Positions 6,759-54,343 of a stretch of 64,000 nt of DNA are shown in pieces (the first letter of the stretch is position 1; each line of letters starts with the position of its first letter). The notes beneath the pieces were generated by a model that worked only from the letters and a program-made list of their open reading frames with translations, was not told the origin of the DNA and ran no database searches. The position numbers were made by a program, and so were the translations under genes. Source of the stretch: a virus; IMG/VR virus record IMGVR_UViG_3300010883_025067, positions 11,870-75,869 of that record. One strand, written 5' to 3'.

Positions 6759-7046
6759 TTGGAAATTTATACTGAAGATAAGATAAGCGAGATTGTGAGT
6801 CACATCAAGCGTGAAAATATTAGTATGTCTGAAAAGCTTGATCTTTTTGTGGGCCCTTCTACAGACAAGGATAGAAGACTTGTTATAAAGCCAGGGCTCA
6901 AGATAAAACATAAGAAGTCAGGCGTCGTTTACACTGTACAAGCAATTGATCTATCTGATTTATCAAACCCAACATTGATTTGCAATCGTCCAGGGTTTGT
7001 AATGGAAATCACAAAACAGCACTTTAAAGACTATGAGAGGCAATAA
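6759..7046 (+). CDS. Hypothetical protein
   Basis: 95-aa ORF, GGAG upstream, coupled to next gene. Confidence 0.6.
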   Translation: MEIYTEDKISEIVSHIKRENISMSEKLDLFVGPSTDKDRRLVIKPGLKIKHKKSGVVYTVQAIDLSDLSNPTLICNRPGFVMEITKQHFKDYERQ

Positions 7047-7741
7047 TGTCAGACTTTACTAACAAGAATCTGCGAGACAACATACGTGAATCATTAAGAC
7101 TTGATGACAATGAAGAGCTAAATGAGGCATATGTTGCACAGCTAAAGCAGTATAGCCTGCCCACTGAGATGTTAAGCGTAGCCAACAAGAGGAATCATGT
7201 TGAGCTTTATGAGGGTTACATCGAAAACTTTAATCGTGTGAGTGCTGAGCTGGATACTGCTGATAGATCTGTAGCAAACTCTAACCACTCACAGTACAGA
7301 TCATTGAAGATTGATGAATCATACAATATGAATGCAGCATATCTTCATGAGCTTTATTTTGCTAACATTAGTGATCTCCACAGTCAGATACCAATGGATT
7401 CACTTTCATACATGAGACTTTCTCGCGATTTTGGTGGTTTTGATAAATGGCAGGAGGATTTTATCGCATGCTGCAAGGCATCAAGATGTGGATGGGCTGT
7501 GACTGTTTATAGCACATATCTTCAGAGATATATGAATTGTGTCGTTGATTTACATAGCTTGCAGATTCCAATCGGTGCGTATCCTGTTGTTGTTATGGAC
7601 GTATGGCAACATGCATATTATCGAGACTACTTGAGAGATGTGAGAACATATGTGCATGCAATGATGAAGCAACTCAATTGGACAGTTATTGAAGAGAGGT
7701 TTCGTAAAGCTGACAAAATTCAAAAGGCACTGAGGACTTAA
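7046..7741 (+). CDS. Fe/Mn superoxide dismutase family protein with N-terminal leader
   Basis: NHVELYEGY, YLHELYF, RDFGGFDKW, GWAV, MDVWQHAYY; all four metal ligands present. Confidence 0.85.
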   Translation: MSDFTNKNLRDNIRESLRLDDNEELNEAYVAQLKQYSLPTEMLSVANKRNHVELYEGYIENFNRVSAELDTADRSVANSNHSQYRSLKIDESYNMNAAYLHELYFANISDLHSQIPMDSLSYMRLSRDFGGFDKWQEDFIACCKASRCGWAVTVYSTYLQRYMNCVVDLHSLQIPIGAYPVVVMDVWQHAYYRDYLRDVRTYVHAMMKQLNWTVIEERFRKADKIQKALRT

Positions 7742-7743
7742 AA

Positions 7744-8355
7744 ATGGAAATCAATAAGAAAATGATCAGAAGACTTATTCTGGAACAGATGGAAGATATG
7801 CTATCAGCAGAGGATGAGACTGATAGAACAAGATTGGGAGTTGATTCTGTGGATGACCAGATAGATTCTTTTTTGATAAAGTTTGAGAAAGACTCAGTTT
7901 CTCCTGAGGGTGCACTTTCAGAGATGAGTGCAAGATCATTAGTAGACCTCTTGCTTGAACAAGAAGAGGAGGCTGAGGATACACCTTCTGAAGAAGAACC
8001 AGCTGAGGCAGAAGAGGCAGAAGTTCCAGAGCCTGAGGATAGCACAAAGATCGATGTGACAGAGCCTGTTGAAGAGATTCAAAAGCTTCCATTAAATATC
8101 GATGCCTTTACAAAGAGAGTTGCAAGACTTGTAATGAATAATGTTATTTTACTCGATGTGAAATCAGTTATTTTGAATCGTGCGAAAAATTATCTACTTG
8201 AGAATTATGACCAAGGCCACGTTGACCAGATGAGAGAGATCCTTGATACACAGTTTGATTTCAATCTTGAGGGAAGGGAAGACACTCCTACTGCCCCATA
8301 CGCTGTAGGTGCATATGCAGGAGGAACCGGAGGCTCGGGAGGCGGCGGCGGATAA
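7744..8355 (+). CDS. Acidic hypothetical protein, putative internal head protein
   Basis: MIRRLILEQ and LLLE motifs, Glu-rich linker. Confidence 0.55.
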   Translation: MEINKKMIRRLILEQMEDMLSAEDETDRTRLGVDSVDDQIDSFLIKFEKDSVSPEGALSEMSARSLVDLLLEQEEEAEDTPSEEEPAEAEEAEVPEPEDSTKIDVTEPVEEIQKLPLNIDAFTKRVARLVMNNVILLDVKSVILNRAKNYLLENYDQGHVDQMREILDTQFDFNLEGREDTPTAPYAVGAYAGGTGGSGGGGG

Positions 8356-8642
8356 TGTCTGATAGCTACATTGACTTTGAGACAAAAAAGACAATCCATT
8401 TCAATATCACACGTGCCACCCATGCAGAGTTAAGAATTGCCTGCTTTAAGAAAAGACTTTCTATGCAAGAGGTGTTTGAGGAAATGTCACAGAGAATAGC
8501 AGCAGGGTCACCTGATGTGATTCATATTCTTGATGATCTTTCACAGAAGAAGAGAGATAGAACAATCAGAAAGCTATCACAGACAGATGCAGAGTCTTTA
8601 TTTGACGTAATTGCGCAGGAAAGTCCACTCTCAGAAGACTAG
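8355..8642 (+). CDS. Ribbon-helix-helix-like DNA-binding protein
   Basis: KTIHFNITRATHAELRIACFKKRLSMQEVFEE: beta-strand plus two helices pattern. Confidence 0.5.
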   Translation: MSDSYIDFETKKTIHFNITRATHAELRIACFKKRLSMQEVFEEMSQRIAAGSPDVIHILDDLSQKKRDRTIRKLSQTDAESLFDVIAQESPLSED

Positions 8643-8644
8643 GA

Positions 8645-10339: not shown

Positions 10340-12106
10340 ATGCGTGTCATAGTAAAGAAAGATGCTTTGGAAGAAGCACTTTTAAAGATCATAAGTGAGG
10401 ATCGAAGTCATCAATCAGCTAGAATTGATACGATTGTAGGTGCAGATGATGATGAACCTATCGAGCCAACACCGCAAATGGCTGTGCAGCTATCAGTTGA
10501 TAAGCCTCCTGTAGATGATCCAGCATATATGCCCTCAAATGTCGAGGAGCTAGGTCGTGCAGCCTCTGTTATATCTGCTGAGGTGCCTTCAGATCAAATT
10601 GAATTTTTTTATAGAAAGCTCCACAGACTTTTAGACAGTGCCCTAGACAGACATGATGCCAAAACTTACGAACAGTCTCTGTCTGAATCGAAAATTCGAG
10701 AAAGTGTTCGAATGATTCTGGAAGCCGATGACGATGATCTCGATGATATTAAGCTTGCTATAGAGGATCCTGTCTCTGAGACAGCTGATAAGATAATTGA
10801 TTACATTGTAGCCAACCCATCATTTTTTCAAGACATCATTGGTCTAGATCCTGAAACTGGTAAGCCGATGACCAGAGCTGCAGATCCACGGCTTGTGCAA
10901 CTTCGTGTTTTGAGTCAGATGCAAAAAAATTCAGTCATTCAGAATATTCTACGAAAGAGTGAGATGTCAGAAGATGAGAAGAAAAATGTTAGAGTAGCTG
11001 TTGCTAATGAAATGCTTAGATTTGCAAAACGAGAGGTTACACCAGAAGAAGTTTCTGGATATATTGAAGCAGGAAAGGCAGAGACAGCAGCCCGTATTCC
11101 AGCTAAAGAGATGGTTAAGGTAAGAAAGGAAACTGGGTTTGAAGGCCTCGAGCTTATTGCAGCGCTCAGAGATCGTGCTGATGAGATAGAAGCAATGGGA
11201 ATGGAGGATAATGCAAGCGGGCTTAGAAAACTTGCAGACGAAACTGAGCAAGAAATTACACATCCTGAGGAATCTGTTGATCCAATTGCAGCAATAGAGA
11301 AAATCAATCCGCATGAGGCAGCAAAGATTCGCAAGCAGCTAAGAGATGAAATTCTGGAAAAAGAAGGGATAGAGCTTAGGATGTCACAACAAGCATTACA
11401 AGCACTAAAGGAAAAAATTGCGGATGAGACAGGATTAAAAGTCAACAATATTCAGAATATTCTCTATGATGACCTTAAAGTATTCGGATTCAACCCAGAG
11501 GATGCTATTAAGCTAGGCTTTCCAACTGATAAAAAAATTCCAAGCACATACGATCCAATGAAGTTAATTGCGCAGAAGAAGATCGTCGGCACTGTCTATG
11601 ATCTATTCAGATCAACAATACGAGACTATATTGAGAGTATTGGGTATGATGATGAGGCTGAAGCCAGTGTCTTAGCTTCACTGCTTGATGATGATATCGC
11701 AACCTTTCCTGGAGATGGAATCGACGGATATGTGAAGGTTCAGAACACAGCTATTACTCATAGAGATATGGATCCTGATTCACAGCAATACCTTAGTGTT
11801 AGAAATTCATTTGAAGCTGTTGTGGCATTTATTCAGGGCGTCGCAAAGGCCATCCTCGATCCTGAAAAAACAAAGGGTGCTAAAGAGGGAGGAGTCAGAG
11901 CGTTTATGCAACAGATGAACACAGATGGTGCATTTCGTCGCCAGTCATCAGATGAAGTGTTAACAACAAGGAATTTTGAACAGTACATGAATGGTTTGAT
12001 CGATAACATTCAGAATGTCATTTTGGATGAGAATATAGCATATAATATTCTTGAAAAGGCACTGAAGACTGCTCCTAAAAGAACTAAAAAGTTTTTAAGG
12101 AAATAA
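10340..12106 (+). CDS. Large acidic helical protein, putative internal virion protein
   Basis: 588 aa; LLKIISE and KIRESVRMILE motifs; ATATTTA and GAGGAG upstream. Confidence 0.55.
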   Translation: MRVIVKKDALEEALLKIISEDRSHQSARIDTIVGADDDEPIEPTPQMAVQLSVDKPPVDDPAYMPSNVEELGRAASVISAEVPSDQIEFFYRKLHRLLDSALDRHDAKTYEQSLSESKIRESVRMILEADDDDLDDIKLAIEDPVSETADKIIDYIVANPSFFQDIIGLDPETGKPMTRAADPRLVQLRVLSQMQKNSVIQNILRKSEMSEDEKKNVRVAVANEMLRFAKREVTPEEVSGYIEAGKAETAARIPAKEMVKVRKETGFEGLELIAALRDRADEIEAMGMEDNASGLRKLADETEQEITHPEESVDPIAAIEKINPHEAAKIRKQLRDEILEKEGIELRMSQQALQALKEKIADETGLKVNNIQNILYDDLKVFGFNPEDAIKLGFPTDKKIPSTYDPMKLIAQKKIVGTVYDLFRSTIRDYIESIGYDDEAEASVLASLLDDDIATFPGDGIDGYVKVQNTAITHRDMDPDSQQYLSVRNSFEAVVAFIQGVAKAILDPEKTKGAKEGGVRAFMQQMNTDGAFRRQSSDEVLTTRNFEQYMNGLIDNIQNVILDENIAYNILEKALKTAPKRTKKFLRK

Positions 12107-12107
12107 T

Positions 12108-12512
12108 ATGAAAGCTTTGATAGACCTTGTGGATAAGAGATTGCTAGAGGGTAATTCCTTATCTAACAGTGTGGGTCAAGCACTGGGATCGTTGAAGACC
12201 ACACTACCTGATCCGTTACCGATAGAGGTAAAAAATCCGGAATGGATTCTCTTACAAGATCCTGAGAGAATCGCCAAAACTTTTGAATTTGATAGCTTTG
12301 GTAACATGAGATATTTCATTGATGAGTTATTGCTTGAACAAGAGAGAATGAATCATCACTCTTTGATTATGATAGACCATATGACAGTCAGTGTAGAGAC
12401 ATATACACATTCACTAAATGCAGTGACAGAGCAGGATTTGCTGCTGGCTAAGTTTTGTGATGAAATATTTGAGGATACGAGATATTTTGAAGGAAAAAAT
12501 AAAGATGTCTAA
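12108..12512 (+). CDS. Pterin-4a-carbinolamine dehydratase family protein
   Basis: W...IAKTFEFDSF...ERMNHH...ETYTHSLNAVTEQDLLLAK. Confidence 0.8.
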   Translation: MKALIDLVDKRLLEGNSLSNSVGQALGSLKTTLPDPLPIEVKNPEWILLQDPERIAKTFEFDSFGNMRYFIDELLLEQERMNHHSLIMIDHMTVSVETYTHSLNAVTEQDLLLAKFCDEIFEDTRYFEGKNKDV

Positions 12513-13054: not shown

Positions 13055-13774
13055 ATGAGCGATATAAGACTTGATAGTGCCAGAGATGTAGAGCTATTCC
13101 TTAAAATCTTAGCTGAGGAGAGTGTCAGGGAGGCACAACGATCAGTCTCGTCTATTGACCCGATGCAGAGTCAAATTGAAAAACAGGTGAAGCAGGACAA
13201 ATCAATCTATGATCTAAGAGAGCAAGATGGACCGCCATCGGGTGAAGATGAGGTAGCAAAACCTGCTGAGGATTCTGAGGCTGGGGCAGAAGCTGAGACT
13301 GAGACAGGGGAAGACGATTCTGGAGAGGGTCTTGAGGTTTCACTTGACAGTGTTGCAGACAGCATCAAGACACTGCGAAGCGGTCGATCTGTTGATGACA
13401 GAGAAATTAAGGCACAGATGCGTGCCTATTTTGATAGACTAGATGCACCAGAAAGACAGGCGCTGCAGGCCTTTATGGGAGCATTTGCAAAAATTTTAAC
13501 AAGTAACGTCACTGGAGCAGATGCGCAGGATCCAAGTGATCCACCTTTGAATATAGCCATGTCTGGTGATGAGCCCGAACCTCAAGGCACTAAGGCAGCA
13601 GCACAGGAAGAAGAGCCAGTAGCTACCGAACCTACTGAAGAGGAAGAAGAGGAAGAAGAGGAAGATGAGAAAAAGGGTGCTGAGGACACCACACCCCCAG
13701 TCCCAATTACTCCTGGTGGACCCCAGCGTGTTGCTGAGATTAGAAGACGCGTTCAAAAGCTAATGATCAGATAA
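13055..13774 (+). CDS. Acidic hypothetical protein, putative head/scaffold-like
   Basis: FLKILAEE, poly-Glu tract, GGAG RBS. Confidence 0.55.
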   Translation: MSDIRLDSARDVELFLKILAEESVREAQRSVSSIDPMQSQIEKQVKQDKSIYDLREQDGPPSGEDEVAKPAEDSEAGAEAETETGEDDSGEGLEVSLDSVADSIKTLRSGRSVDDREIKAQMRAYFDRLDAPERQALQAFMGAFAKILTSNVTGADAQDPSDPPLNIAMSGDEPEPQGTKAAAQEEEPVATEPTEEEEEEEEEDEKKGAEDTTPPVPITPGGPQRVAEIRRRVQKLMIR

Positions 13775-14086: not shown

Positions 14087-15367
14087 ATGAGATCAGAAGA
14101 GCTTCTTAGACTGCTTATTCGTGAATCTGTATTTAGACTTTATGATGGAACAGAAACAGAGTATGGCTCGTCGAGTCATGTCGAAGACCTTGATAGAATA
14201 GTCAACGAGCTTCAGCACTTAAAAAAGACACTTAAGCGTGGTTCAAGAAGACTACAAAATAGAAAAGAAATACACAGGATCCAAAGCTCAATAGAGGCAA
14301 TTCGATATCTAAGAAATGGTGTCAAAAGATTTGGAATTAGGAGTGGTTTGATCGCTGAGGGAGGATTAAAGATTCCCGGCGGTTCCGATAAAAAGTTAAA
14401 TCCCACACTAGTGGGTCAGGCAATAAAGGTGTATGAGAATCTCTTGGGACAGTGGAATTCATATCTTGAGCTAGCAGGTCATGACCCTGTTAAGCCAATC
14501 AAGCCCGTAGGGTCTGTAAGCTACTATTCACAGGACGCTTTAGAAAATCCCGACGCTGAATATGGAGACATTGATTACCTTGTAGAACTGCCAGTTATGC
14601 ATCAGGAGAGTTCGGACGAGAAAAGTAAGAGACAAATTGAGAATGCAATTAAGCGGGAATATGAGCAGTTGTTTGTCAATTTTTTGAATGCTGTTAAACC
14701 TGCTGAAGTTGACATAGAGCTTACATTAAAGCCAAGTGCTATTGGCAGTAAGGTCCCATCTAGTCCCTATATGGTCATTATTACATTGCCAGGTGGTGAG
14801 TCAGTTCAGGTAGACACAGTCACGACTTATCCGAGAAGTGCAGAGTGGATGGGAGGCAGGTATACACCAGAGCGTGGTGTCAAGGGATACCTGATAGGAA
14901 ACATATATAAGTCTCTTGGTGACCATCTGGTGATGTCTATCGGTACCCAGGGGGTGGCAATTAAGTCTAGGGAGGGAAAGAGAGTACCTGCTAAGTTTCA
15001 AAAAGGTGTCAAGGTTGAAAATATAAGCACAGATATCGGTAATTTTCTGGTAGATATTGCTGCTTACCTTGTGGGAGATAATCTAGATCCTCATCCGCTT
15101 TTGGTTGGAAATCCTGGTGTTGACAAAGACAGTGTATCCATGAGATCTCTTGTGAAGGGAATAAAGGGATTAGCTCTGACTCTTGAAGCTGGAGGAGATT
15201 ATGACGCGCTGGGTATGATGAATGCCATCAAGGCATACTATGAGGAAAATCTTAGAAGCAATGTAGAGCAGAAAAAAACCAGAGGCTTAAATGAGAAAGA
15301 CTACCAGAAGCTATTAAAGATGAATGATGTTGCTGTTAAAATGATGTCGGAGGAGTTTGGTCTCTAA
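14087..15367 (+). CDS. Pol-beta superfamily nucleotidyltransferase with N-terminal leader
   Basis: PVGS...GDIDYLV...VQVD catalytic Asp pattern; leader LLRLLIRES...LIAE/GG. Confidence 0.7.
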   Translation: MRSEELLRLLIRESVFRLYDGTETEYGSSSHVEDLDRIVNELQHLKKTLKRGSRRLQNRKEIHRIQSSIEAIRYLRNGVKRFGIRSGLIAEGGLKIPGGSDKKLNPTLVGQAIKVYENLLGQWNSYLELAGHDPVKPIKPVGSVSYYSQDALENPDAEYGDIDYLVELPVMHQESSDEKSKRQIENAIKREYEQLFVNFLNAVKPAEVDIELTLKPSAIGSKVPSSPYMVIITLPGGESVQVDTVTTYPRSAEWMGGRYTPERGVKGYLIGNIYKSLGDHLVMSIGTQGVAIKSREGKRVPAKFQKGVKVENISTDIGNFLVDIAAYLVGDNLDPHPLLVGNPGVDKDSVSMRSLVKGIKGLALTLEAGGDYDALGMMNAIKAYYEENLRSNVEQKKTRGLNEKDYQKLLKMNDVAVKMMSEEFGL

Positions 15368-16014: not shown

Positions 16015-19000
16015 AGCTTGGGCTTTACGGGGGAGGATTCAAACCCTTTACAACTGGGCATTTTGCAAGGTTGGCTGACGCGATACATGATAATGACAAG
16101 GTGTACTTATTTTACGGTATGCAGCAAGTAGAGCCAGCTAGGTATGGGAAGAAAGGCCAGCAGCTAAAATCGAAACAGAAGTTCAGAGATATTGGAAAAA
16201 CCGGAAGAATGTATGATGAGAAAGTTGCTGAGTCTATCTTTCAAATATACAAGACTGCTCTTGAGAGAATCCCAGAAGTCGAGGTGATTCTGGTACAAAG
16301 TCAGGCTAGGGACGAACAAGGAAATCTCGCTGCAGTTCGAGCACCTGTAACAGCGATATTCAAGAATCTTGAGGAGTTTGTTAAGAATCCCGACATGTAT
16401 GAAAAGGTTACTATCTATGGAGATAAATCCTCGATGGCACCGTACATGAAAAGTCCAAAGTTTAAAGACCTTGTGAGAGTGGGAAAGCTCCAATTCGGTG
16501 GTGCTATTCCTGAAAATCCAGAAGATTACCTGGATCCGGACAGGCTAGATAGACTAATGACTCGCGGCGAAGAAGAAGCCCGTGACGCACTAAAGGGATA
16601 TTATGCAGACTTAGAGGGAGAAGATAGAAAGGAACTATCAGATGAGGATATCACACAGCTACAATCTGTCAGAGGTACTCGAGTTAGAGATCTTGCAGCT
16701 TCTCCAGAGACAACAGAAGAAGCTAAGCGCTACCTTCCTCCTTTTCTTAACAGTGATGAAAAGGACAAGATCATTCAAATTCTTCTGGGTAGCATAGATG
16801 AGTCACTTATAAAGCCAGCAATTTCAGAAGCTGTTGTAAAAAGAGCAGCAACAAAGTTTTCTGCTATAAGGTTGCTATCAGAGCAAGATGATAAAAGTGC
16901 TGTTGGGCCTGGTGAGGAAGCACACATATACAATCTGTATGAGGAGCTGGGAATGCCCCTCAAGGACATCATTGAGATAGGTCATTTAGGATTGAAAGGA
17001 AAGCTAGAGAATGTTCAGGAGAAAATGGACGGTCAGTTTCTGGCATTCACAGTTGTCGATGGTCAGCTAAGATTTTTCACCAAGATGGATCTTCAGAGTC
17101 AGAGGGCAAAGGATAAGCGGCTAGAGTCGATTCGAGCAGGCGGACCCGGCGGAGGCATGACTTTAGATCAGATCATGTCTGCTTATACAGGAGATAGATC
17201 AAATATCGCAGATGGATTTGCAATCGCTTATGAGGCATTGGAGCCTGTAGCACTACCATATCAGGATTCACTCTTCAGAAATGGAGAGGTTGTGATGGCA
17301 TCACAGATAATGGTATCAAAGAACCCTAACACAATTCTATATAACAAGGACTCTCTAAGGACAGTCCTTGCTATCTCTTTAACAGGTGAGCCTGTTAATC
17401 AAGATGCACTGTCATCCTTTAAGTCAGAGATGCGTGATTCCTCGACGGATGCTTTTACCATGGACGAGGTACCCACAGCCTCTCTTATGAAAGGGCTTGA
17501 CGAGGATGATAGTGAGCTTGAGCAATTAGAGAAAGATCTAGAGTCAGTTGTTGCAGAGGTGGGACTTTCAATTAGTAATAATACAGTTGGTGATTACGTC
17601 AATGCGAGATTAGAGGAGTTCATCAGGGAGAAATATGAGTTTATTCCCGATGACTTTGTCCCTGGAGTCGCTGACAGATTTATGACAGGAAAGGGAAGAA
17701 TTGCCCTACAGCTTAAGAAGGTAGTATCACCTGAAGAGTACCAGCGCTTCCGATCGCTTGATAGTGTGAAGACCAGAGTGGTACAAGAGGCAATTGTTCC
17801 ACTTGAGAACATTATTCAGAGGCTGGGCATCATGATTATTGATAAGCTCGATCTCGCCCTTCAGGCTAGTAATCAGGAAGATCTGCTAGGATTTGTTAAA
17901 GACGTTAGGGGTGAATTTGAATCTGGGTTTAATTTTGGTTTGGGATCTGAAGATGAGAAGACGTTAGAGGGGATTCGTGTAGCCTTGGCGAGACTTGAGG
18001 CCAATGAAGATTTATTTACTCGCGCCACAGAAGGTATCGTCTTTACACACAACAATAAGACATATAAGCTAACCGGTCTTTTTACACCCATTAATAGATT
18101 GCGTGGATTCTTCTCATACGGCAAGGCAAAAATGCCAGACCGAGGAGAAAGTAAAGATCTAAGTGAAACAGTAAGCAAAATTTTAATGAAGATTCTTTCC
18201 GAAGGAGGAAAGGCCTTTAAGCATAAGGATGAGCAGGGAAATGAGATTGTTGCAACATCTGAAGATAGTATATCTAGACAGCAGGCTGACCGGATAATAC
18301 AAGATCTTGAGAAGAATCTACTGGAGCCATTGGGCATCAAGTTTTTACCTGTAGGTAGTACAGCAACTGACAAGCAGATGATAGGTGACATCGATCTTGT
18401 TGTCAGTGAACCTGATAAGGGGACACTATACCAGAAAATGTTGAGTGCTGCATATCTCAGTGATGAACTTGTCGAAGGTGTGCCACGCGTTCTAAAGGTC
18501 GGTCAACTTGTTGCTATCATGGTTAAGGATGCAGAGACAGGGCAATTATTTCAGGTTGATCTGTTTCCAAGTTCTAACATGGACGATACATCCTGGGAAC
18601 TCTCGGGAGGAGGAGAAGGCAAGGTTAAGGGTGAGTATCATAAGCTAATGATTTCTCTTCTTGCTAAAATAAAAGGTGAGAGAGAATCAACACCAGACAG
18701 GGTTGTTAAGTACACAGTAGCTTTTCCGGGCGGCTTACGTGAAAAAGTTAATGACATCGAAGATGAGTCAGGAAGGATAGCTGATCCTGATGATTATCTG
18801 CCTAAGCTGGGTGTGCAGGTAGAAGATAAGCATTCTGTTAAAATCTTTGAGGATCTCGTGTCTCACATGGTGGAGGCGGATACATCTGAATTTAGAGAAG
18901 CCTTAGAGAGATTTGAGGAGTATATTGGGAATAGATTAAATGCCAAGTCAGAGAAGATAAAGGGCGAGGCCCAGAAGACTCTTGATGTGATCAATGTTGC

Positions 19001-20312
19001 ATTTTTTAAAACCGCACCAGAAAGTGAATTAGCTGAGTTGCACTTTAGACAGAATGTTAGAGCGCTGCTATATGAGAATTCTGAAGCATATGAGAGCGCG
19101 AAATCATTCACTGAAAAGTCAAGAATCATCTTTAACATGTTTAAATCACCTGATTTTTTCGGAAGTGACATACAGAAAATAATCAATGTGTCAGGTGCAA
19201 ATAAGTTAGTCAGACTTGGCTTGGCACCAGGTGCAGATGATCGTCATGATATCAGTAAGATATTAAATCTTATGTATGATAGCTTATCACCTGATCGTAC
19301 GAGGGGTATCATCGAGCTTGCACCTGATGAGCATCCTAATCCCAGTAGCAAGTATCTCGCATATGTCATGCCTGATCTCGATGATCTCATGGTGATTTTT
19401 GGAATAGCCGGTGTCACCGGCGGCCAGCGCAAGGCTGGATATGTGTATGAGATCGATGTGGGTGAGAATCTTAAAGCAGCGGGAATCCAAGCACGAAGCG
19501 GAAAGGATAACTCTGTATCTGATGTCTATGTGCCCATGGTCAGCGGAATGCTTGGTATCGAGGTCAAGTTACCAAATGCTCAAGCTGGAGAGCCCACATT
19601 AAAGTATGACTTTGACAAGGGTGAATTCTTTGCTTCAAACCCTAAGCCGCAAAATCAGGATATTGCAGATCTTATAAATATGGATCCAACAGCACTTGAG
19701 GTGAATAGACGTCTGACACTTGTGAGAGATGTGATAAATGACTATCGGGCTGAGAATGACCTTCCTGAGATAGAGAGCATACTCGCTAAGATAAGCAAAA
19801 AGGAGTACAGGGATGTGGTGTTACCCGCTCTTCGAAGCAAGGGAGAGAATATTTCAGGTGCGTTGCTTGCTGTTTACACTGTTTCAGCAGATATACTTCG
19901 GAAATATTACATGCTTAAAAAAGCAGGTGTAGTCCAGGTGAAGGGAAAGGGATTATTTCACCTGCACCCAGACTTCAAGATAACGTTAACAGATGAGAGC
20001 GGCAACAGTAGATCATCAGAGTTTTTTGACTTCTCACCTGCGCAGGGTGCAGTTTACTTTAGAAATTTCAGAGGTGGGAACTATGGGATTAGATCGCAGC
20101 TCAAAAATTCACCACTGCGGAGATTAAAACAGTCTGGTATTGATCTTGATGCAGAGAGGGATCGCGATGAGTTTGCTAAGCTCGTGTCAACTTTAAATCT
20201 TCCAGATCCAATGTCAGTCGCTGCTGAGAGCTCTTCTGAGCCTACAAATGAGACTGCAATTGTGGCTCGGGCACTAAAGAGCTTAATTTTAAGGTACAAT
20301 GGAAGAGTCTGA
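16011..20312 (+). CDS. Multidomain polyprotein: HIGH-type cytidylyltransferase-like, ligase-like (DUF6267-like), Pol-beta NTase and PD-(D/E)xK nuclease-like domains
   Basis: GGGFKPFTTGH; EKMDGQ...EGIVF...YKL; VGST...GDIDLVV...FQVD; YE...SDVYV...IEVK; ATGA overlap with upstream gene gives start 16011. Confidence 0.7.
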   Translation: MKLGLYGGGFKPFTTGHFARLADAIHDNDKVYLFYGMQQVEPARYGKKGQQLKSKQKFRDIGKTGRMYDEKVAESIFQIYKTALERIPEVEVILVQSQARDEQGNLAAVRAPVTAIFKNLEEFVKNPDMYEKVTIYGDKSSMAPYMKSPKFKDLVRVGKLQFGGAIPENPEDYLDPDRLDRLMTRGEEEARDALKGYYADLEGEDRKELSDEDITQLQSVRGTRVRDLAASPETTEEAKRYLPPFLNSDEKDKIIQILLGSIDESLIKPAISEAVVKRAATKFSAIRLLSEQDDKSAVGPGEEAHIYNLYEELGMPLKDIIEIGHLGLKGKLENVQEKMDGQFLAFTVVDGQLRFFTKMDLQSQRAKDKRLESIRAGGPGGGMTLDQIMSAYTGDRSNIADGFAIAYEALEPVALPYQDSLFRNGEVVMASQIMVSKNPNTILYNKDSLRTVLAISLTGEPVNQDALSSFKSEMRDSSTDAFTMDEVPTASLMKGLDEDDSELEQLEKDLESVVAEVGLSISNNTVGDYVNARLEEFIREKYEFIPDDFVPGVADRFMTGKGRIALQLKKVVSPEEYQRFRSLDSVKTRVVQEAIVPLENIIQRLGIMIIDKLDLALQASNQEDLLGFVKDVRGEFESGFNFGLGSEDEKTLEGIRVALARLEANEDLFTRATEGIVFTHNNKTYKLTGLFTPINRLRGFFSYGKAKMPDRGESKDLSETVSKILMKILSEGGKAFKHKDEQGNEIVATSEDSISRQQADRIIQDLEKNLLEPLGIKFLPVGSTATDKQMIGDIDLVVSEPDKGTLYQKMLSAAYLSDELVEGVPRVLKVGQLVAIMVKDAETGQLFQVDLFPSSNMDDTSWELSGGGEGKVKGEYHKLMISLLAKIKGERESTPDRVVKYTVAFPGGLREKVNDIEDESGRIADPDDYLPKLGVQVEDKHSVKIFEDLVSHMVEADTSEFREALERFEEYIGNRLNAKSEKIKGEAQKTLDVINVAFFKTAPESELAELHFRQNVRALLYENSEAYESAKSFTEKSRIIFNMFKSPDFFGSDIQKIINVSGANKLVRLGLAPGADDRHDISKILNLMYDSLSPDRTRGIIELAPDEHPNPSSKYLAYVMPDLDDLMVIFGIAGVTGGQRKAGYVYEIDVGENLKAAGIQARSGKDNSVSDVYVPMVSGMLGIEVKLPNAQAGEPTLKYDFDKGEFFASNPKPQNQDIADLINMDPTALEVNRRLTLVRDVINDYRAENDLPEIESILAKISKKEYRDVVLPALRSKGENISGALLAVYTVSADILRKYYMLKKAGVVQVKGKGLFHLHPDFKITLTDESGNSRSSEFFDFSPAQGAVYFRNFRGGNYGIRSQLKNSPLRRLKQSGIDLDAERDRDEFAKLVSTLNLPDPMSVAAESSSEPTNETAIVARALKSLILRYNGRV

Positions 20313-20580
20313 TCAAGGAATGAATAGAATTTTAGAGCAGTTACACTTTGTTGCATCCTATGTTGGAGATTCCGATGATTGGGTGACTGTAAAGAAGGAG
20401 ATTCTTCGAGGAATACCCTCGCCGCTGCGCAAAAGATTCTCTCGTCGTGATTCGAGAACAAAGGAGCAGTGGTTGAATAATTTTGAGAAGGAGCTAATTA
20501 TTTACTATAAGGAGCAGACAGGTGTCGACCTAAAGCTTCGTACACTTGCAGAGAGAAGGGAGATGTTTGGTGTCCTCTGA
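20299..20580 (+). CDS. Hypothetical protein
   Basis: 93-aa ORF overlapping polyprotein stop. Confidence 0.6.
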   Translation: MEESDQGMNRILEQLHFVASYVGDSDDWVTVKKEILRGIPSPLRKRFSRRDSRTKEQWLNNFEKELIIYYKEQTGVDLKLRTLAERREMFGVL

Positions 20581-28080: not shown

Positions 28081-28143
28081 TCTTCATAGTGAAAATACAC
28101 AGGCTAGAGAATATTTAATAATGTTTTGCAGGGGCACACCACA

Positions 28144-44967: not shown

Positions 44968-44970
44968 TCT

Positions 44971-45056: not shown

Positions 45057-45059
45057 TTT

Positions 45060-45134: not shown

Positions 45135-45137
45135 TTC

Positions 45138-45210: not shown

Positions 45211-45217
45211 CAAGAAT

Positions 45218-45294
45218 CGGGATGTGGCGCAGCCTGGCAGCGCATCTGCTTTGGGAGCAGAGGGTCGCAGGTTCGAATCCTGTCATCCCGACCA
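45218..45294 (+). tRNA. tRNA-Pro (TGG)
   Basis: cgggatg/catcccg, tctgc-tttggga-gcaga, CCA. Confidence 0.95.
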
Positions 45295-47610: not shown

Positions 47611-48264
47611 ATGAAAATGAGAGAAAAATTGTTGTCACAGGTGAGACGCTTACTAAGTGAGATTGCAACACAGGCATTTCCCAGTGCGCTACCTGTTGAC
47701 ATCAAGGACATAACAAAAGTCATCCAGCAGCTCCGACAGGAGCAGATGTCCAAGGAATCGGAGATTAGTGCAGCACAGAAAGAACCTGATCCTAATGTCC
47801 GCTCAACCAGGGTGGCACAACTACAAGGAGAGCTAGGTGATATCATAGCTCAAAAGAGCCAGCTTGTTCAGATGCAGAAAAAATCCACTACGTCAGAGGC
47901 AATCAGTCAGATAAGTTCTAATCTTAAGATTTCAAGAGTAGACCTTATGGAGCTTGTTAGAGAGCAACTTGATGATGATCAAGCTAAGCCCGTCGCCCGT
48001 CAGCAACACAGGAATAGATCTAGAGAAAGAATGAAAATTACCAAGGCCCATCTCAGACAGATAATTAATGAGGAGATCAATCGTGTCCTTGATGATGATA
48101 TTGATGAAGATACACAGGGCCTCAGGGCAAAGCTTGGCGGAGATGATCCTCTGTCTGTGGCTGGAGGAGATACTGAAGATGATCCGCTTGTCGATGAAGA
48201 AGCACTTACACTACCCACTGGAGACCGCGGAGGTTGGGAATACATGACCGGCGGTGAACACTAG
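47611..48264 (+). CDS. Putative internal virion protein
   Basis: VRRLLSE, LMELVREQL, MKITKAHLRQIINEEI. Confidence 0.55.
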   Translation: MKMREKLLSQVRRLLSEIATQAFPSALPVDIKDITKVIQQLRQEQMSKESEISAAQKEPDPNVRSTRVAQLQGELGDIIAQKSQLVQMQKKSTTSEAISQISSNLKISRVDLMELVREQLDDDQAKPVARQQHRNRSRERMKITKAHLRQIINEEINRVLDDDIDEDTQGLRAKLGGDDPLSVAGGDTEDDPLVDEEALTLPTGDRGGWEYMTGGEH

Positions 48265-52045: not shown

Positions 52046-52303
52046 ATGTTTATCACAGATAAGAAATTGAGAATGTTGATTAGAGAGTCTCTATTAGAGA
52101 GATATGATGAACATTGGATGTCTGGTTTGAGTGAATCAGAGATTCAGGAGATCATAAGAAAGCTGGGTCCAAAGAAGTATAGACTCTACTCTAAGAAGAA
52201 GAATCCTAAGACAGGAGAGAGAAGAAATCTCGGTACCTTCAAATCAAAGAAAGCAGCAAGAAAGCACGAGAAAGACATCGAGTTCTTTAAGCAGCAGGGA
52301 TAG
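52046..52303 (+). CDS. Small basic protein with leader, putative internal virion nucleic-acid-binding protein
   Basis: LRMLIRESLLE leader then KYRLYSKK...RNLGTFKSKKAARKHE. Confidence 0.6.
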   Translation: MFITDKKLRMLIRESLLERYDEHWMSGLSESEIQEIIRKLGPKKYRLYSKKKNPKTGERRNLGTFKSKKAARKHEKDIEFFKQQG

Positions 52304-52355: not shown

Positions 52356-52577
52356 ATGAGAATTGGTGATCTGGTCTTCTATAAGGGATTTGTCCACGAC
52401 AACACTGACCCACCTTCGTTGGAATTCTTTGACCGTTTACGACTAGGACTTATTGTCTCTGTGAGTGGTAGTTCATTTCAGCTCTCCACCGGAAGGTGTT
52501 TATGGTGGACGTGTACTACAGCTGGTGAGATATTCAAAAATTGGGAAATGCTAATTGTTAGTAAGATTGACAGATAG
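52356..52577 (+). CDS. Small SH3/KOW-like protein
   Basis: MRIGDLVFY...LGLIV; AGGAG RBS. Confidence 0.55.
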   Translation: MRIGDLVFYKGFVHDNTDPPSLEFFDRLRLGLIVSVSGSSFQLSTGRCLWWTCTTAGEIFKNWEMLIVSKIDR

Positions 52578-52582
52578 ATAGT

Positions 52583-52873
52583 GTGCCAAGAAAAAAAGTA
52601 AAAGTAGGAGATCTCTATGAGGTTGATACCTTTGCCCGTGTCATAGTGCATGTTAAGATTACACAGGTGATATGTGACAAATCATATAAGTGTGTCTTAG
52701 TTAGGGAATCTGATTTAAAAGATCTACGCAATGCTAGCGTGCACATCGAGAAAGGTACTAAGCCCGAAGATGTAGAGGGATATCTTTATGAGTGGCAGAT
52801 TAAAAAAAGCCTAAGCCGAGGGGGAAAGAGACGAAGAGTGGTTCGAGGAAATAGAAAAAAAGAAGAGACGTAA
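52583..52873 (+). CDS. Hypothetical basic protein
   Basis: VKVGDLYEV. Confidence 0.55.
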   Translation: MPRKKVKVGDLYEVDTFARVIVHVKITQVICDKSYKCVLVRESDLKDLRNASVHIEKGTKPEDVEGYLYEWQIKKSLSRGGKRRRVVRGNRKKEET

Positions 52874-52921
52874 CATTTATTTTTCTAGACTTTAACTGTA
52901 ATTTCGATACCTGGAGTCTCA

Positions 52922-53605
52922 ATGTTAGGCAGATTATTTTTTACAGCAATTTTCGCATGCAGCAGCGGTTCAGACATCAACACTAAAACGGAAGATGAAG
53001 TTGAGTCACCTGAGCAATCGTATGATGAATTTATATCACCAGAAATAAATGTATCACCAGAACTGTTAGGCACAGATACATCGACTTCTTCTAGCACTGA
53101 TAGCGATGAAGAAGATGTATCACCCATCACGTGGACTGAATGTGATCAGTGGCCCAATAGTCATCCATGTGATTTCAAATTGTTTGACCCAAATGGTGAT
53201 GTCTGGACTCTATACGACAACTATGGCACAGTGATGGTAATCGAATTTGTGACAATGTGGTGTGCTGTCTGCAACAGCATTGCACCACATGTTCAGACAA
53301 TGCAGGATACCTATACTTCTCGTGGGTATGACTTCTTATGGGTAACTGTCATCATCGAGGATTACAATCGTGAGAGTGTAGAGTTTTCAGAAGCTCAGGC
53401 ATGGATTGATAGAAACGGAATGACAACATCACCTGTTCTGGTAGGCTCACGTGACATGATAGACATGAGTGGCCAACTAGGCTATCCTATCAGCTCCTGG
53501 CCTACACTTGTTGTGATAGATGATGAGATGGTCCTGACACATGGAATTAACGGCTGGAATGAAAGTATCATTCTAGAATGGGTTGAAGACGCGCTAGGTC
53601 TGTGA
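52922..53605 (+). CDS. Redoxin-family lipoprotein, paralog of 41391-41963
   Basis: IFAC lipobox; HPCDFKLFD; MWCAVC; SWPTLVVID. Confidence 0.85.
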   Translation: MLGRLFFTAIFACSSGSDINTKTEDEVESPEQSYDEFISPEINVSPELLGTDTSTSSSTDSDEEDVSPITWTECDQWPNSHPCDFKLFDPNGDVWTLYDNYGTVMVIEFVTMWCAVCNSIAPHVQTMQDTYTSRGYDFLWVTVIIEDYNRESVEFSEAQAWIDRNGMTTSPVLVGSRDMIDMSGQLGYPISSWPTLVVIDDEMVLTHGINGWNESIILEWVEDALGL

Positions 53606-54343
53606 TCACTTTTTACGGTGCTTTTCTTGAATGATTTTAATTGCTTCACTTACAATCTGCAATCTATACAGTTCAGGCTCTGTGATAGGATCATACATGT
53701 TTTCTAGATCTATTCCAAATTTTTGTGGATCCTGATACAAGTCATTGAGTGATTGCTCTTGTTTTGTGTCATGCTTTTTAGCTTTTTTGATAGCCTTGGC
53801 TTTTGCCATTCCTGAGGCAACCATCCTTGCAATCATAATATCAGCGAAATCTTTGTCGCCGTCTCCATCATGATCCTTTTTCTTTGTTCTCTTTTTACTC
53901 TTTTCTGCTAGGAGTGGTTTAAAGGCTTTCTCTAAAAGCTCTGCTCTGACTACATTGATTGATTCTTTTTTTGGGTTTTTATCGGCAGCATCCATCTGTC
54001 TCACGATTTTTCTCGCCCAGCTATAACCCGTGTCACCACCCCAGAGCATCCAGGCAATGTAACCTCTATCTGTTGCATGAGTCTTTCCCGGATCTATTTT
54101 TTTATTTTTTTTGTGACGATCAAAAAATGATTTCATTCTTCTGACAGTTTTCGGAGAGAGATTTGATCTACTCTTAAGGTTTGATGCGCGCTGCACACCA
54201 GATCCTATTCCTTGCTTCGATGCCTGCTTAGCACTCAGCCCTCCCTTGCCTTTGTTTTTTCTTCTAAGCTCGAGTCCTCGCTTAGCAGCTTTGGCAACAG
54301 AGGCTGGAGGCTTAAAGTCTATGTGATCGTATTTGCCAGCCAT
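53606..54343 (-). CDS. Basic phage head-associated domain protein with a DxDxDG loop
   Basis: PP..VAKAAKRGL...TVRRMKSFFDRH...GYIAWMLWGGD.G..WA; KDHDGDGDKD; start moved to ATG 54343 after minus-strand ATATTTA. Confidence 0.6.
   Translation of the reverse strand: MAGKYDHIDFKPPASVAKAAKRGLELRRKNKGKGGLSAKQASKQGIGSGVQRASNLKSRSNLSPKTVRRMKSFFDRHKKNKKIDPGKTHATDRGYIAWMLWGGDTGYSWARKIVRQMDAADKNPKKESINVVRAELLEKAFKPLLAEKSKKRTKKKDHDGDGDKDFADIMIARMVASGMAKAKAIKKAKKHDTKQEQSLNDLYQDPQKFGIDLENMYDPITEPELYRLQIVSEAIKIIQEKHRKK

What the first reader, a model, noticed from the sequence alone, without database searches (positions are those of the whole stretch)
7046..54343. Shared 'LRxxIREE...[IL]xE' leader on about 15 unrelated proteins: candidate capsid-loading and protease-release code
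Seen: an amphipathic helix and/or [IL]-[LIA]-x-E site in 7046 (NLRDNIRESL..ELNE), 7744 (MIRRLILEQ), 10340 (KIRESVRMILE), 12108 (KRLLE), 13055, 14087 (LLRLLIRES..LIAE), 16011 (internal, three times), 20570 (IVRNLLSE), 21799, 24371, 28144 (LRRIIREELERHLLSE), 46582, 47611 (LRQIINEEI), 52046 (LRMLIRESLLE) and 54343(-). I did not see it in the replication or translation enzymes, and it co-occurs with the ATANTTA motif. Established: T4 gp21 and phiKZ gp175 prohead proteases cleave after Glu in short hydrophobic-x-E sites, and T4 internal proteins carry a cleaved capsid-targeting leader. Inference: this is a modular tag grafted onto diverse enzymes (SOD, NTases, HAD phosphatase, pterin dehydratase) to package them in the head and inject them with the DNA.
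Basis: partly seen in the sequence, partly recalled or inferred. Interest (0 to 1): 0.8.

Follow-up and report, generated by a model that had tools for sequence, protein, structure and literature searches.

The report
Shared capsid-loading leader on phage proteins
An uncultured T4-type jumbo phage lineage starts many unrelated proteins, including a superoxide dismutase, with the same short helix ending in its head protease's cutting motif, most likely an enlarged version of phage T4's "load into the head, then clip" tag, though no experiment shows this.

Summary
The window is a 76-kb fragment (CheckV 24%) of a jumbo phage.

- **Canonical leader:** two or three of its proteins carry it (MKISKGQLRRIIREELERHLLSE at 28144; copies at 48031 and 52046).
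- **Degenerate form:** about seven more begin with a weaker version of its core, hydrophobic-[RK]-x-hydrophobic-hydrophobic-[RSL]-E.
- **Weakest cases:** four have only a short hydrophobic-x-E or a different leader, and two cited sites fail.

In relatives the leader is unmistakable. In IMG/VR, 174 copies sit at residue 1 of 150 unique proteins. The 142 complete ones fall into 93 unrelated body clusters. Conservation runs for 22 residues, ends in L-L-x-E, then stops.

An 83%-identical relative carries a T4-type head module with an S77 (gp21-like) protease. The leader aligns in register with the N-termini of the two small proteins encoded right after that protease.

The SOD homologues keep an invariant [LI]-x-E|[SA] junction exactly where the enzyme core begins. 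Leader genes follow a late-type ATAYTTA motif shared with virion genes, never the sigma70-like promoters.

Best reading (about 0.7): a T4 CTS-like packaging and cleavage tag. Packaging, cutting and injection are all unobserved. This scan found analogous tags with other sequences on other DNA.

The parts
28144..28212 (+). Canonical leader MKISKGQLRRIIREELERHLLSE at residue 1 of a 154-aa protein of unknown family. The true start is ATG 28144, not TTG 28126.
   Evidence: Leader HMMs built from relatives score 29.1 and 33.2 bits. The identical leader sits on the unrelated 161-aa protein P0005. ATATTTA lies at 28111-28117.
48031..48096 (+). Second canonical leader MKITKAHLRQIINEEINRVLDD, starting at Met141 inside ORF 47611-48264. 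It is either a tandem cargo module or an internal start.
   Evidence: 21.7 and 24.2 bits. Similar internal copies occur in relatives.
52046..52099 (+). Leader variant MFITDKKLRMLIRESLLE on an 85-aa basic protein.
   Evidence: 13 bits, E 4.5e-4 with the G3 leader HMM. 7.8 bits with the relatives-only HMM. Hit by the narrow regex.
7046..7126 (+). 27-residue propeptide of a Fe/Mn-type SOD: MSDFTNKNLRDNIRESL...ELNE|A, with the predicted cut after Glu27.
   Evidence: Pfam Sod_Fe_C. PDB 1COJ aligns query residue 38 to chain residue 12, so the core starts near residue 28. In 100 homologues the junction has P1 = E in 100/100, P3 = L/I in 94/100 and P1' = S/A in 99/100.
7744..7785 (+). Degenerate leader MEINKKMIRRLILE on a 203-aa acidic protein.
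   Evidence: Narrow regex hit. 7.0 bits. Conserved in G1; the G3 homologue has 'YRRLFEQ'.
10340..10399 (+). Degenerate leader MRVIVKKDALEEALLKIISE on a 588-aa protein of unknown family.
   Evidence: Broad regex hit. Homologues in G5, G6 and G3 keep a short basic N-terminus followed by [LV]xE. ATATTTA at 10316.
14087..14125 (+). Degenerate leader MRSEELLRLLIRE on a 426-aa protein with a possible NTase fold.
   Evidence: Narrow regex hit. Atlas relatives are 80-100 aa shorter at the N-terminus and NTP_transf_2 is a lead only. ATACTTA at 14064.
20570..20623 (+). Degenerate leader (V)SSDREQIKYIVRNLLSE. The start codon is uncertain (TTG 20546 or GTG 20570).
   Evidence: Broad regex hit. LLSE is conserved in G1. 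One of the enriched [IL]LSE sites.
47611..47661 (+). Degenerate leader MKMREKLLSQVRRLLSE at the start of the ORF that also holds the 48031 copy.
   Evidence: Broad regex hit. [IL]LSE site.
56956..57006 (+). Degenerate leader MKLSSDAINQLLRIISE on a 55-aa ORF.
   Evidence: Broad regex hit. 8.9 bits with the relatives-only HMM.
12108..12149 (+). N-terminal extension MKALIDLVDKRLLE of a pterin-4a-carbinolamine dehydratase. It is a different leader type, so its membership is uncertain.
   Evidence: The Pfam Pterin_4a match starts at residue 42. 131 of 150 relatives are at least 120 aa long, and the N-termini I inspected begin M[KR]xL-hydrophobic-[ED] and lack the LRRII core.
13055..13117 (+). Weak case: MSDIRLDSARDVELFLKILAE.
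   Evidence: 'FLKILAEES' is conserved in G1 and G5. It is not hit by the leader HMMs.
21799..21873 (+). A different leader type: MNFDINRLAKLAGL...GMLQE|A.
   Evidence: The G5 homologue has 'VNRICELAGL...GLLSE|A', and a G3 HAD-like protein starts 'MDAVINRWCKLAGILQE'. ATACTTA at 21771.
24371..24418 (+). Weak case: MSKESKFRMIVSHILE.
   Evidence: The G1 ortholog has 'LRLVVGHILKE'. ATATTTA at 24346.
16869..16883 (+). Internal candidate cleavage junction RLLSE297 in the 1439-aa multidomain protein.
   Evidence: A stand-alone homologue of the following domain in G6 starts about 6 residues downstream.
18189..18203 (+). Internal candidate junction KILSE737 in the 1439-aa multidomain protein.
19062..19076 (+). 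Internal candidate junction ALLYE1028 in the 1439-aa multidomain protein.
28111..28117 (+). One example of the late-type promoter-like motif ATAYTTA. Other copies start at 5402, 10316, 14064, 21771, 24346, 38303, 40622 and 46555.
   Evidence: The same motif precedes portal, sheath, tube, baseplate and fibre genes in G1 and G3.

Best explanation
The motif is the local, partly degenerate form of a lineage-wide N-terminal propeptide. Its consensus is M-K-I-T-K-R-Q-L-R-R-I-I-K-E-E-K-A-[RK]-L-L-x-E.

I propose that it works like the capsid targeting sequence (CTS) of phage T4 internal proteins.
1. The basic amphipathic helix docks the protein onto the assembling prohead core (inferred).
2. The T4-type S77 prohead protease then cuts after Glu in the [LI]-x-E site or sites at the end of the leader, or at the leader/enzyme junction, releasing the mature protein inside the head (inferred).
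3. The cargo then leaves with the DNA at infection (inferred).

Shown here: the leader is real and modular, it is conserved as a peptide rather than as DNA, it ends in the protease motif, it resembles the N-termini of the head-core proteins encoded beside the protease gene, and it is linked to late-type promoter motifs.

In the window the predicted cargo includes:
- a Fe/Mn-type SOD that retains its metal ligands;
- several proteins of unknown family;
- possibly an NTase-like protein;
- possibly a 1439-aa multidomain protein that would be cut into pieces.
For: 1. **Lineage.** The window is 24% of a jumbo phage. Relative G001 (83% nt identity over 44 kb, collinear) extends 70 kb upstream and carries gp20 portal, an S77 protease (PF03420, E 2e-25, with His and Ser aligned to the two residues that read Ala in the crystallised T4 chain 5JBL), an acidic scaffold and a gp23 MCP.
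2. **Leader anatomy.** The DNA pattern for TKxQLRRII[KR]EE finds 174 copies in IMG/VR. In 170 of them a start codon lies exactly 3 codons upstream. Columns that the pattern did not constrain are conserved through position 22 (KA[RK]LLxE) and then become random. The first [LIVM]xE after residue 15 ends at position 21 or 22 in 111 of 150 unique proteins.
3. **Modularity.** 142 complete proteins fall into 93 body clusters, median length 97 aa. The identical 23-aa leader sits on unrelated P0005. In the complete 284-kb relative about 30 genes carry the leader.
4. **Peptide-level selection.** Codons vary synonymously and the upstream DNA is not conserved.
5. **Link to the head.** The leader profile aligns in register from residue 1-2 with the N-termini of the two conserved small proteins encoded directly after the protease gene (hhalign Prob 75% and 94%, E 2.5e-5 and 2.2e-7). 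The MCP has a conserved Q[LV]L[RK]E|S about 30 residues before the conserved VRR motif, close to where T4 gp23 has LTE|A. The scaffold starts MSKSLYDEAIAE|A, compared with T4 gp22 MLKEQLIAE|A.
6. **SOD junction.** E is invariant at P1, L/I fills P3 in 94%, P2 is variable and S/A fills P1' in 99%. The junction lies at the residue where the SOD core begins, despite indels upstream.
7. **Promoters.** ATAYTTA precedes virion genes and leader genes. The sigma70-like RTGYAA-N17-TAnnAT promoters precede 13 other genes and no leader gene.
8. **Precedent.** T4 gp21 cuts after L/I-x-E, and a 10-residue CTS suffices to load foreign proteins into T4 heads (PMC9026906, PMC3012670, PMC5694885).
Against: - There are no proteomic, structural or genetic data. 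Packaging, cleavage and ejection are all inferred.
- The window's own contig has no protease or capsid gene, so the link goes through relatives.
- Most window cases are degenerate and individually insignificant (0-9 bits).
- [LI]-x-E is a short, common motif.
- Some leader copies are internal (48031), which a simple N-terminal signal does not require.
- The leader shows no sequence similarity to the T4 CTS itself.
- The large arrays of small leader genes in the 284-kb relative have few late-promoter motifs.
- The PCD extension belongs to another leader type.
Confidence: 0.7

Rival explanations
1. The leader is a protease-removed propeptide, but its job is not cargo delivery. The tagged proteins would be extra prohead-core or scaffold-like components, or zymogens held inactive. 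They would be degraded or expelled during maturation rather than kept and injected.
For: The leader resembles the N-termini of core proteins next to the protease gene. In T4 those core proteins (gp22, gp67, gp68) are cut into fragments that leave the head (PMC5694885). Many tagged proteins are small, and 7744 is highly acidic like a scaffold.
Against: The tagged set includes folded enzymes with intact catalytic residues (SOD). It spans 93 unrelated families, some with pentapeptide-repeat or RMF domains. That diversity is hard to explain as scaffolding. The single clean junction before the SOD core looks like release of a mature enzyme.
Confidence: 0.13
2. The helix is a general interaction or localisation module unrelated to the capsid, for example oligomerisation or binding to a host or phage structure. 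The hydrophobic-x-E sites would then be incidental features of an amphipathic helix rich in Glu.
For: [LI]-x-E is frequent in any Glu- and Leu-rich helix. Internal and near-C-terminal copies exist (48031; the last 7 residues of 46582, FRRMLSE; 24748). No binding partner could be identified.
Against: In 170 of 174 copies the leader starts at residue 1. Conservation stops exactly at L-L-x-E22. The SOD junction keeps P3, P1 and P1' but not P2. The leader resembles the head-core N-termini, and leader genes share the late-type promoter motif with virion genes.
Confidence: 0.1
3. The leader is a recognition sequence for a modifying enzyme (RiPP-like logic), as this scan proposed earlier for a shared tag in phage RB43.
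For: The complete relative encodes radical-SAM enzymes.
Against: The radical-SAM genes of the 284-kb relative lie at 132, 228 and 245 kb, not beside the leader arrays at 183-190 and 270-284 kb. None is found in the other four records searched, which are fragments. No large enzyme gene is embedded in the arrays, judged from a gene list by length and N-terminus without a family search. The tagged proteins include full-size enzymes, not short precursors.
Confidence: 0.03
4. For the degenerate window cases only (7046, 7744, 10340, 13055, 14087, 20570, 24371, 47611, 56956): some are chance amphipathic N-termini and do not belong to the system.
For: Individual scores are 0-9 bits. 12457 is already shown to be an artefact of start-codon choice.
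Against: As a set they are strongly enriched at N-termini. Most are conserved in relatives. The SOD case is independently supported by 100 homologues.
Confidence: 0.3

Closest known systems
Capsid targeting sequence (CTS) of phage T4 internal proteins IPI, IPII, IPIII and Alt, removed by prohead protease gp21 (Mullaney and Black 1996, as reviewed in PMC9026906, PMC3012670 and PMC5694885)
   Same: A short N-terminal propeptide at residue 1 of otherwise unrelated proteins. It ends in L/I-x-E, the motif cut by an S77-family protease. The phage has a T4-type head module (gp20 portal, gp21 protease, scaffold, gp23 MCP). The cargo is small and diverse, and it is hypervariable between relatives.
   Different: The leader is 22 residues rather than 10 and shows no sequence similarity to the T4 CTS. 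It heads about 30 proteins per complete genome and at least 93 body clusters in the lineage, against a handful in T4. Cargo includes recognisable enzymes (SOD). Copies can be internal. Function is untested here, whereas the T4 CTS is proven by fusions.
Propeptides of phiKZ, 201phi2-1 and SPN3US head and ejection proteins, cut by gp175/gp245 at S/A-x-E
   Same: Jumbo phages in which many head proteins (about 19 in 201phi2-1) are processed after Glu by a gp21-related protease. The propeptides are thought to target proteins to the prohead (PMC5694885, PMC9026906).
   Different: Those propeptides are long (often over 100 residues) and the reviews do not describe one common leader for them. P3 there is Ser/Ala, not Leu/Ile. 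The present lineage is T4-type (gp23 MCP), not phiKZ-type.
Encapsulin cargo-loading peptides
   Same: A short portable peptide addresses diverse enzymes, including oxidative-stress enzymes, to the lumen of an HK97-fold shell (from my own knowledge, not tested here).
   Different: Those peptides are usually C-terminal, are not cleaved and bind the shell protein directly. They involve no protease and no DNA delivery.

Membership tests
T4-type CTS / internal-protein system | The same short peptide sits at the extreme N-terminus of proteins whose remaining sequences are unrelated. | tested here: met
   170 of 174 copies have a start codon 3 codons upstream. 142 proteins fall into 93 body clusters. 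P0005 shares only the leader. In the window, 33 tagged proteins (with G3) fall into 29 clusters.
T4-type CTS / internal-protein system | The peptide ends in the gp21 cleavage motif L/I-x-E. | tested here: met
   Consensus ...KA[RK]LLxE22, after which conservation is lost. 28144 ends HLLSE23. The SOD junction [LI]xE|[SA] is invariant at P1.
T4-type CTS / internal-protein system | The phage encodes an S77 (gp21-type) prohead protease within a T4-type head module. | tested here: met
   Met in relatives: G001 (83% nt identical, collinear) has PF03420 at E 2e-25 between the portal and the scaffold/MCP genes. More than 597 related proteases exist in IMG/VR. The window's own contig is a 24% fragment without the head module, so the gene itself could not be seen.
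T4-type CTS / internal-protein system | Sequence homology of the leader to the T4 CTS (MKTYQEFIAE-like). | tested here: not met
   By eye, the cargo leader MKITKRQLRRIIKEE... shows no similarity to the T4 CTS as I recall it; no alignment was run. Only the scaffold N-terminus (MSKSLYDEAIAE|A) resembles T4 gp22 (MLKEQLIAE|A). The system is therefore analogous rather than the same leader family.
T4-type CTS / internal-protein system | Expression together with head genes (late). | tested here: inconclusive
   ATAYTTA precedes virion genes and six leader or cargo ORFs. The sigma70-like promoters precede none of them. These are motif matches only, without transcript data.
T4-type CTS / internal-protein system | Physical incorporation into proheads, cleavage by the protease, and presence of the mature protein in virions. 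| not testable with these tools
   No cultured host or virion proteome is available.
Fe/Mn superoxide dismutase (cargo at 7046) | SOD fold with the four metal ligands (His, His, Asp, His). | tested here: met
   PF02777 at E 1e-17. 1COJ at E 6e-33, with the NH..., LHELYF and DVWQHAYY motifs aligned. H51, H101, D185 and H189 are invariant in 43 homologues.

The most novel reading that the evidence does not exclude
A widespread lineage of uncultured T4-type jumbo phages uses one 22-residue address tag to load roughly 30 proteins per genome, from at least 93 unrelated body clusters across the lineage, into the capsid. The load would include active enzymes: a superoxide dismutase and possibly nucleotidyltransferase or repair enzymes released from a polyprotein. 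It would also include pentapeptide-repeat and ribosome-modulation-factor-like proteins. All would be injected with the DNA as a ready-made takeover and anti-defence kit. The tag would then be a portable, predictable code for finding injected phage effectors in metagenomes.
Probability: 0.4. Interest if true: 0.8.

Novelty: new variant of a known kind. Interest (0 to 1): 0.62.

Why it matters
If the tag works as proposed, three things follow.

- **Finding injected proteins.** It gives a sequence rule for picking out the proteins a whole lineage of abundant, uncultured ocean jumbo phages delivers into the host at the moment of infection. That class of protein, which includes anti-restriction and host-takeover factors, is otherwise almost impossible to predict from sequence.
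- **Scale of the mechanism.** It would show that the T4 CTS principle scales from three or four internal proteins to dozens per genome, and to real enzymes such as SOD.
- **A testable handle.** It offers a portable 22-residue tag with a defined release site for packaging foreign proteins in T4-type capsids.

The SOD case alone is a concrete hypothesis: a phage that injects an antioxidant enzyme.

Tried and rejected
The contexts of P0004 and P0005 could not be fetched.
- **PHROGs** on ten leader proteins gave nothing useful. The only hit was a marginal phrog_1 match for 52046.
- **Whole-database search with residues 1-40 of 28144** returned only its own small family plus P0005, because few word candidates were drawn. 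A leader-only query to the search for related loci was too short. The first DNA pattern had too few fixed bases.
- **Complex prediction**, G001 protease against SOD residues 1-50: no verdict (score 0.01, controls not run). This is not evidence either way.
- **AlphaFold2 of the SOD** with 43 homologues gave a poor model (pLDDT 60). It shows a helix at 6-17 and coil at 18-28 around the predicted cut, which is too weak to lean on.
- **PDB sequence search for 14087** found nothing.
- **All-against-all N-terminus comparison**, meant to find further leader types, timed out.
- **Narrow canonical HMM.** It detects only 28144 and 48031 in a six-frame scan of the contig, so I rejected the idea that all 15 cited sites are the same leader.
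- **My own correction.** I first placed the G3 SOD cluster inside the canonical leader arrays. That was a coordinate mix-up. It lies at 10-15 kb, near the arrays but not within them.
- **RiPP-like and radical-SAM reading:** rejected for lack of adjacency.
- **Nucleotide-level signal** (promoter or RBS cassette): rejected because codons vary synonymously and the upstream DNA differs.

Full report
**What the window is**

The 64-kb window is bases 11870-75869 of a 75,869-bp viral contig that CheckV rates 24% complete. It is therefore a piece of a roughly 300-kb jumbo phage.

- Coding is almost all on the + strand.
- The contig encodes DnaK, DnaJ, a Pol III alpha-like protein, GroEL, a sigma-70 factor, thymidine kinase, dCMP deaminase, IMPDH/GMP reductase, an ATP-dependent ligase, a helicase and 9 tRNAs. 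DnaK, DnaJ and Pol III alpha were recognised by eye from their N-terminal sequences, not by a family search.
- It has no capsid, portal or protease gene.

**Is the motif there?**

Translating the cited starts shows a recurrent basic amphipathic N-terminal helix.

- A pattern taken only from relatives ([LI][RK]x[LI][IV][RKL]E) hits four N-termini (7744, 14087, 28144, 52046) and no internal position. In 2000 shuffles the mean is 0.02 and none reaches 4.
- My broader pattern gives 10 N-terminal hits against 1 internal, with 0.32 expected.
- An HMM trained on relatives only places 9-10 N-terminal sites among the contig's 16 best hits.

The cases are not equal, however.

- Leader HMMs built from relatives give significant scores only to 28144 (29-33 bits), to an internal Met-initiated copy at 48031 (22-24 bits) and, more weakly, to 52046 (13 bits).
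- 7046, 7744, 10340, 14087, 20570, 47611 and the uncited 56956 carry a degenerate core.
- 12108, 13055, 21799 and 24371 have only a short hydrophobic-x-E or another leader type.
- The N-terminus of 46582 and the site at 54343(-) are not supported.
- ORF 12457 is a start-codon artefact.

**Relatives reveal the system**

The 154-aa protein at 28144 has few homologues. One database protein, P0005, shares only the first 23 residues (96% identical) and is otherwise unrelated.

Two IMG/VR contigs are collinear with the first 44 kb of the contig at about 83% nucleotide identity. The longer one, G001 (115 kb), extends 70 kb upstream. That extension is a T4-type virion module, in this order:
1. terminase (assigned by position and size only, not by a family search);
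2. gp20 portal (PF07230, E 4e-75);
3. a 284-aa protein;
4. an S77 prohead protease (PF03420, E 2e-25), which aligns to T4 gp21 structure 5JBL; His and Ser stand where the crystallised chain reads Ala, apparently its mutated catalytic residues;
5. small proteins of 161, 85, 167 and 228 aa;
6. a 494-aa highly acidic scaffold-like protein;
7. a gp23-type MCP (PF07068, E 1e-78);
8. then tail genes.

The nearest isolates are distant: Microcystis phage Mel-JY01 at 35% and Flavobacterium 'immuto' phages at 44% MCP identity, with Rhodothermus RM378 further off. The protease has more than 597 relatives in IMG/VR.

**The leader in the lineage**

- In 80 loci around the protease, the broad pattern is 30 times more frequent per position at N-termini than internally (114 against 38 hits).
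- In a complete 284-kb relative (G003, CheckV 100%), about 30 genes start M[KR]ITKRQLRRII[KR]EE. Most lie in arrays at 183-190 kb and 270-284 kb.
- A degenerate DNA pattern for TKxQLRRII[KR]EE finds 174 copies in 93 stretches of IMG/VR, where I estimate far fewer than one by chance. In 170 of them a start codon lies exactly three codons upstream.
- Among 150 unique proteins, the columns the pattern did not fix are conserved through position 22 (M-K-I ... K-A-[RK]-L-L-x-E) and are random afterwards. The first [LIVM]-x-E after residue 15 ends at position 21 or 22 in 111 of 150.
- The 142 complete proteins (median 97 aa) fall into 93 body clusters.
- Pfam recognises only a pentapeptide-repeat protein, an RMF-like protein, an EF-hand and a few others among 93 representatives.
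- Codons vary synonymously and the upstream DNA is not conserved, so selection acts on the peptide.

**Link to head assembly**

- The leader profile aligns in register, from residue 1-2, with the N-termini of the two conserved small proteins encoded immediately after the protease gene. These start MAKLSRxxLKxIVKECLVEILSEG and xKLTPxLLRKIVLEEK (hhalign Prob 75% and 94%, E 2.5e-5 and 2.2e-7).
- The gene between portal and protease also starts with LLLRHISE.
- The MCP N-terminal region has a conserved Q[LV]L[RK]E|[SQAV] about 30 residues before the conserved VRR motif. In an alignment with T4 gp23 this lies within 6 residues of the T4 LTE|A site. That LTE|A is the maturation cleavage site is from my memory and PMC5694885, which reports a 65-residue propeptide.
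- The scaffold-like protein starts MSKSLYDEAIAE|A, like T4 gp22 MLKEQLIAE|A.
- The protease itself has near-invariant LLTE11|W, IKE24|S and an invariant E173. These resemble the self-processing sites discussed for gp21 (PMC9026906).

**The best single case: SOD**

- Gene 7046 matches Sod_Fe_C and Aquifex Fe-SOD 1COJ (E 6e-33). The alignment runs from query residue 38 to chain residue 12, so the enzyme core starts near residue 28, directly after ...ELNE27.
- The four metal ligands are present and invariant.
- The family is large: 1869 proteins at E up to 1e-10. The best 120 are all 228-244 aa and all have the extension.
- In the 100 homologues that could be anchored on the YVAQ motif, P1 is Glu in 100, P3 is Leu or Ile in 94, P1' is Ser or Ala in 99, and P2 is any of eight residues. 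The position of P1 drifts from 24 to 39 because of indels upstream. This matches the L/I-x-E specificity established for T4 gp21 (PMC9026906).
- The extension's helix (FTNKDLKENIKKSL) lines up by eye, in register, with the canonical leader.

**Promoters**

- The motif ATAYTTA, usually GATAYTTA(G/T/A), is strand-biased: 16 against 9 copies in the contig, 21 against 6 in G001 and 45 against 19 in G003.
- It lies 6-57 nt upstream of portal, sheath, tube, baseplate and fibre genes in the relatives.
- In the window it lies upstream of the ORFs starting at 5454, 10340, 14087, 21799, 24371, 28126 (which contains the 28144 start), 38317, 40642 and 46582.
- Genes 7046/7744, 12108/13055 and 15993/20570 follow these in tightly packed same-strand runs, so they may be co-transcribed.
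- The sigma70-like promoter noted elsewhere in this scan (RTGYAA-N16-18-TAnnAT) precedes 13 genes, including Pol III alpha, the sigma factor, AAA/VWA genes and lipoproteins. None of them is a leader gene.

These are motif matches only and say nothing direct about transcription.

**Other points on the cited sites**

- The three internal sites in the 1439-aa protein (RLLSE297, KILSE737, ALLYE1028) resemble the end of the leader (HLLSE, NLLSE, RLLSE).
- [IL]LSE is 4-fold enriched in the contig.
- A stand-alone homologue of the second domain in G006 begins about six residues after E297. This fits a domain boundary and a polyprotein cut by the same protease.
- The PCD (12108) has a 30-45-residue extension that appears to be shared by most of its 150 best relatives. 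It is of another type (M[KR]xL-hydrophobic-[ED]...), so I count it as uncertain.
- The 21799 leader (INRLAKLAGL...MLQE|A) is a further type. It recurs on a HAD-like protein in G003.

**Interpretation**

The closest known system is the T4 capsid targeting sequence. It is a 10-20-residue N-terminal propeptide on otherwise unrelated internal proteins. It directs them to the scaffolding core and is removed by gp21 at L/I-x-E (PMC3012670, PMC9026906, PMC5694885).

- Features that match: position, modularity, cleavage motif, protease family, head-module context and small diverse cargo.
- Features that differ: the leader sequence (not homologous to the T4 CTS), its length (22 residues), the number of tagged proteins (about 30 per complete genome; at least 93 body clusters in the lineage), the enzymatic cargo and the internal copies.

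No paper in the searchable library contains the leader string or describes such expanded families.

This scan has reported analogous shared leaders, with different sequences, in other uncultured T4-type phages. The kind of finding is therefore recurrent within the scan, but this leader was not seen before.

**Confidence**

| Claim | Probability |
|---|---|
| The leader is a real, modular, selected peptide | about 0.97 |
| It is cut by the prohead protease | about 0.75 |
| It targets proteins to the prohead | about 0.65-0.7 |
| The mature proteins are injected | about 0.45 |

Rivals are scaffold-like or zymogen propeptides without delivery, a capsid-unrelated interaction helix, and a RiPP-like recognition tag. 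The last is disfavoured because radical-SAM genes are not adjacent to the arrays.

A complex prediction of protease with the SOD N-terminus gave no verdict. An AlphaFold model of the SOD was too poor to use.

Noticed in passing
window 48031-48264 within ORF 47611-48264; also G003 proteins at 185415, 271033, 272814, 273550 and 274326: Canonical leader copies occur inside longer ORFs, usually starting with Met, Val or Ile. The preceding module often has its own N-terminal leader. These may be tandem cargo modules cut apart by the protease, or internal translation starts.
   Followed up: partly
window 21799-21873; G003 gene 176272-177561(-); G005 homologue: A second leader type, M-x-x-D-[IV]-N-R-[LIW]-x-[KE]-L-A-G-[LI] ... 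[ML]L[QS]E|A, sits on unrelated proteins. One is a HAD-like protein in G003 that follows a late-type promoter motif.
   Followed up: partly
window 12108-12509 and its 150 best database relatives: Most phage PCD-like proteins (131 of 150 are at least 120 aa) appear to carry an N-terminal extension of about 30-45 residues starting M[KR]xL-hydrophobic-[ED]-hydrophobic-hydrophobic-[DN] and ending near a conserved 'LP[IV]' just before the domain. This may be a third propeptide type.
   Followed up: partly
window 47359-47379 (C-terminus of ORF 46582-47379) and about 24922-24951 (ORF 24748-24984): Leader-like cores lie at or near C-termini: FRRMLSE forms the last seven residues of the HAD-like protein, and DLRNLIKDKF lies near the end of a 78-aa protein (conserved in G001). 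T4 Alt and gp21 have C-terminal propeptides, so C-terminal tags are conceivable.
   Followed up: no
window 13777, 24988, 25330, 28642, 48869, 49162, 50488, 54349, 54612, 58641, 63534 and others: The sigma70-like promoters RTGYAA-N16-18-TAnnAT precede replication, regulatory, lipoprotein and small 'GDLV' genes but no leader gene. Together with ATAYTTA this suggests two cleanly separated promoter classes. The phage encodes its own sigma-70 factor (25390-26247).
   Followed up: partly
IMG/VR loci L131-L210 (alignment A2): Among 93 representative leader-tagged proteins of relatives, Pfam recognises a pentapeptide-repeat protein (E 1e-28), a ribosome-modulation-factor-like protein (E 6e-6) and an EF-hand. 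These are plausible injected host-interference factors.
   Followed up: no
G001 protease (L008:15406-16017:-) and alignment A4: The protease clade has near-invariant LLTE11|W and IKE24|S near the N-terminus and an invariant Glu173 (FMMxE|GK) before a C-terminal tail. These are candidate self-processing sites like those discussed for T4 gp21.
   Followed up: no
window 32464-32548, 37181-37353, 44882-45294, 59786-59861: Nine tRNA genes (Leu x2, Met, Asn, Ser, Thr, Ala, Pro, Arg). Several of the ORFs called at these places are artefacts of the tRNA genes.
   Followed up: no
window 5454-6695 and G001 (reverse-complement coordinates 4762-6027): The 413-aa protein at 5454 is a paralogue of a 421-aa protein in the virion module of the relative. 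Both start M-x-x-FKEIAASDI, and the window copy follows a late-type motif. The window region 5.4-21 kb therefore looks like a late, virion-associated block.
   Followed up: no
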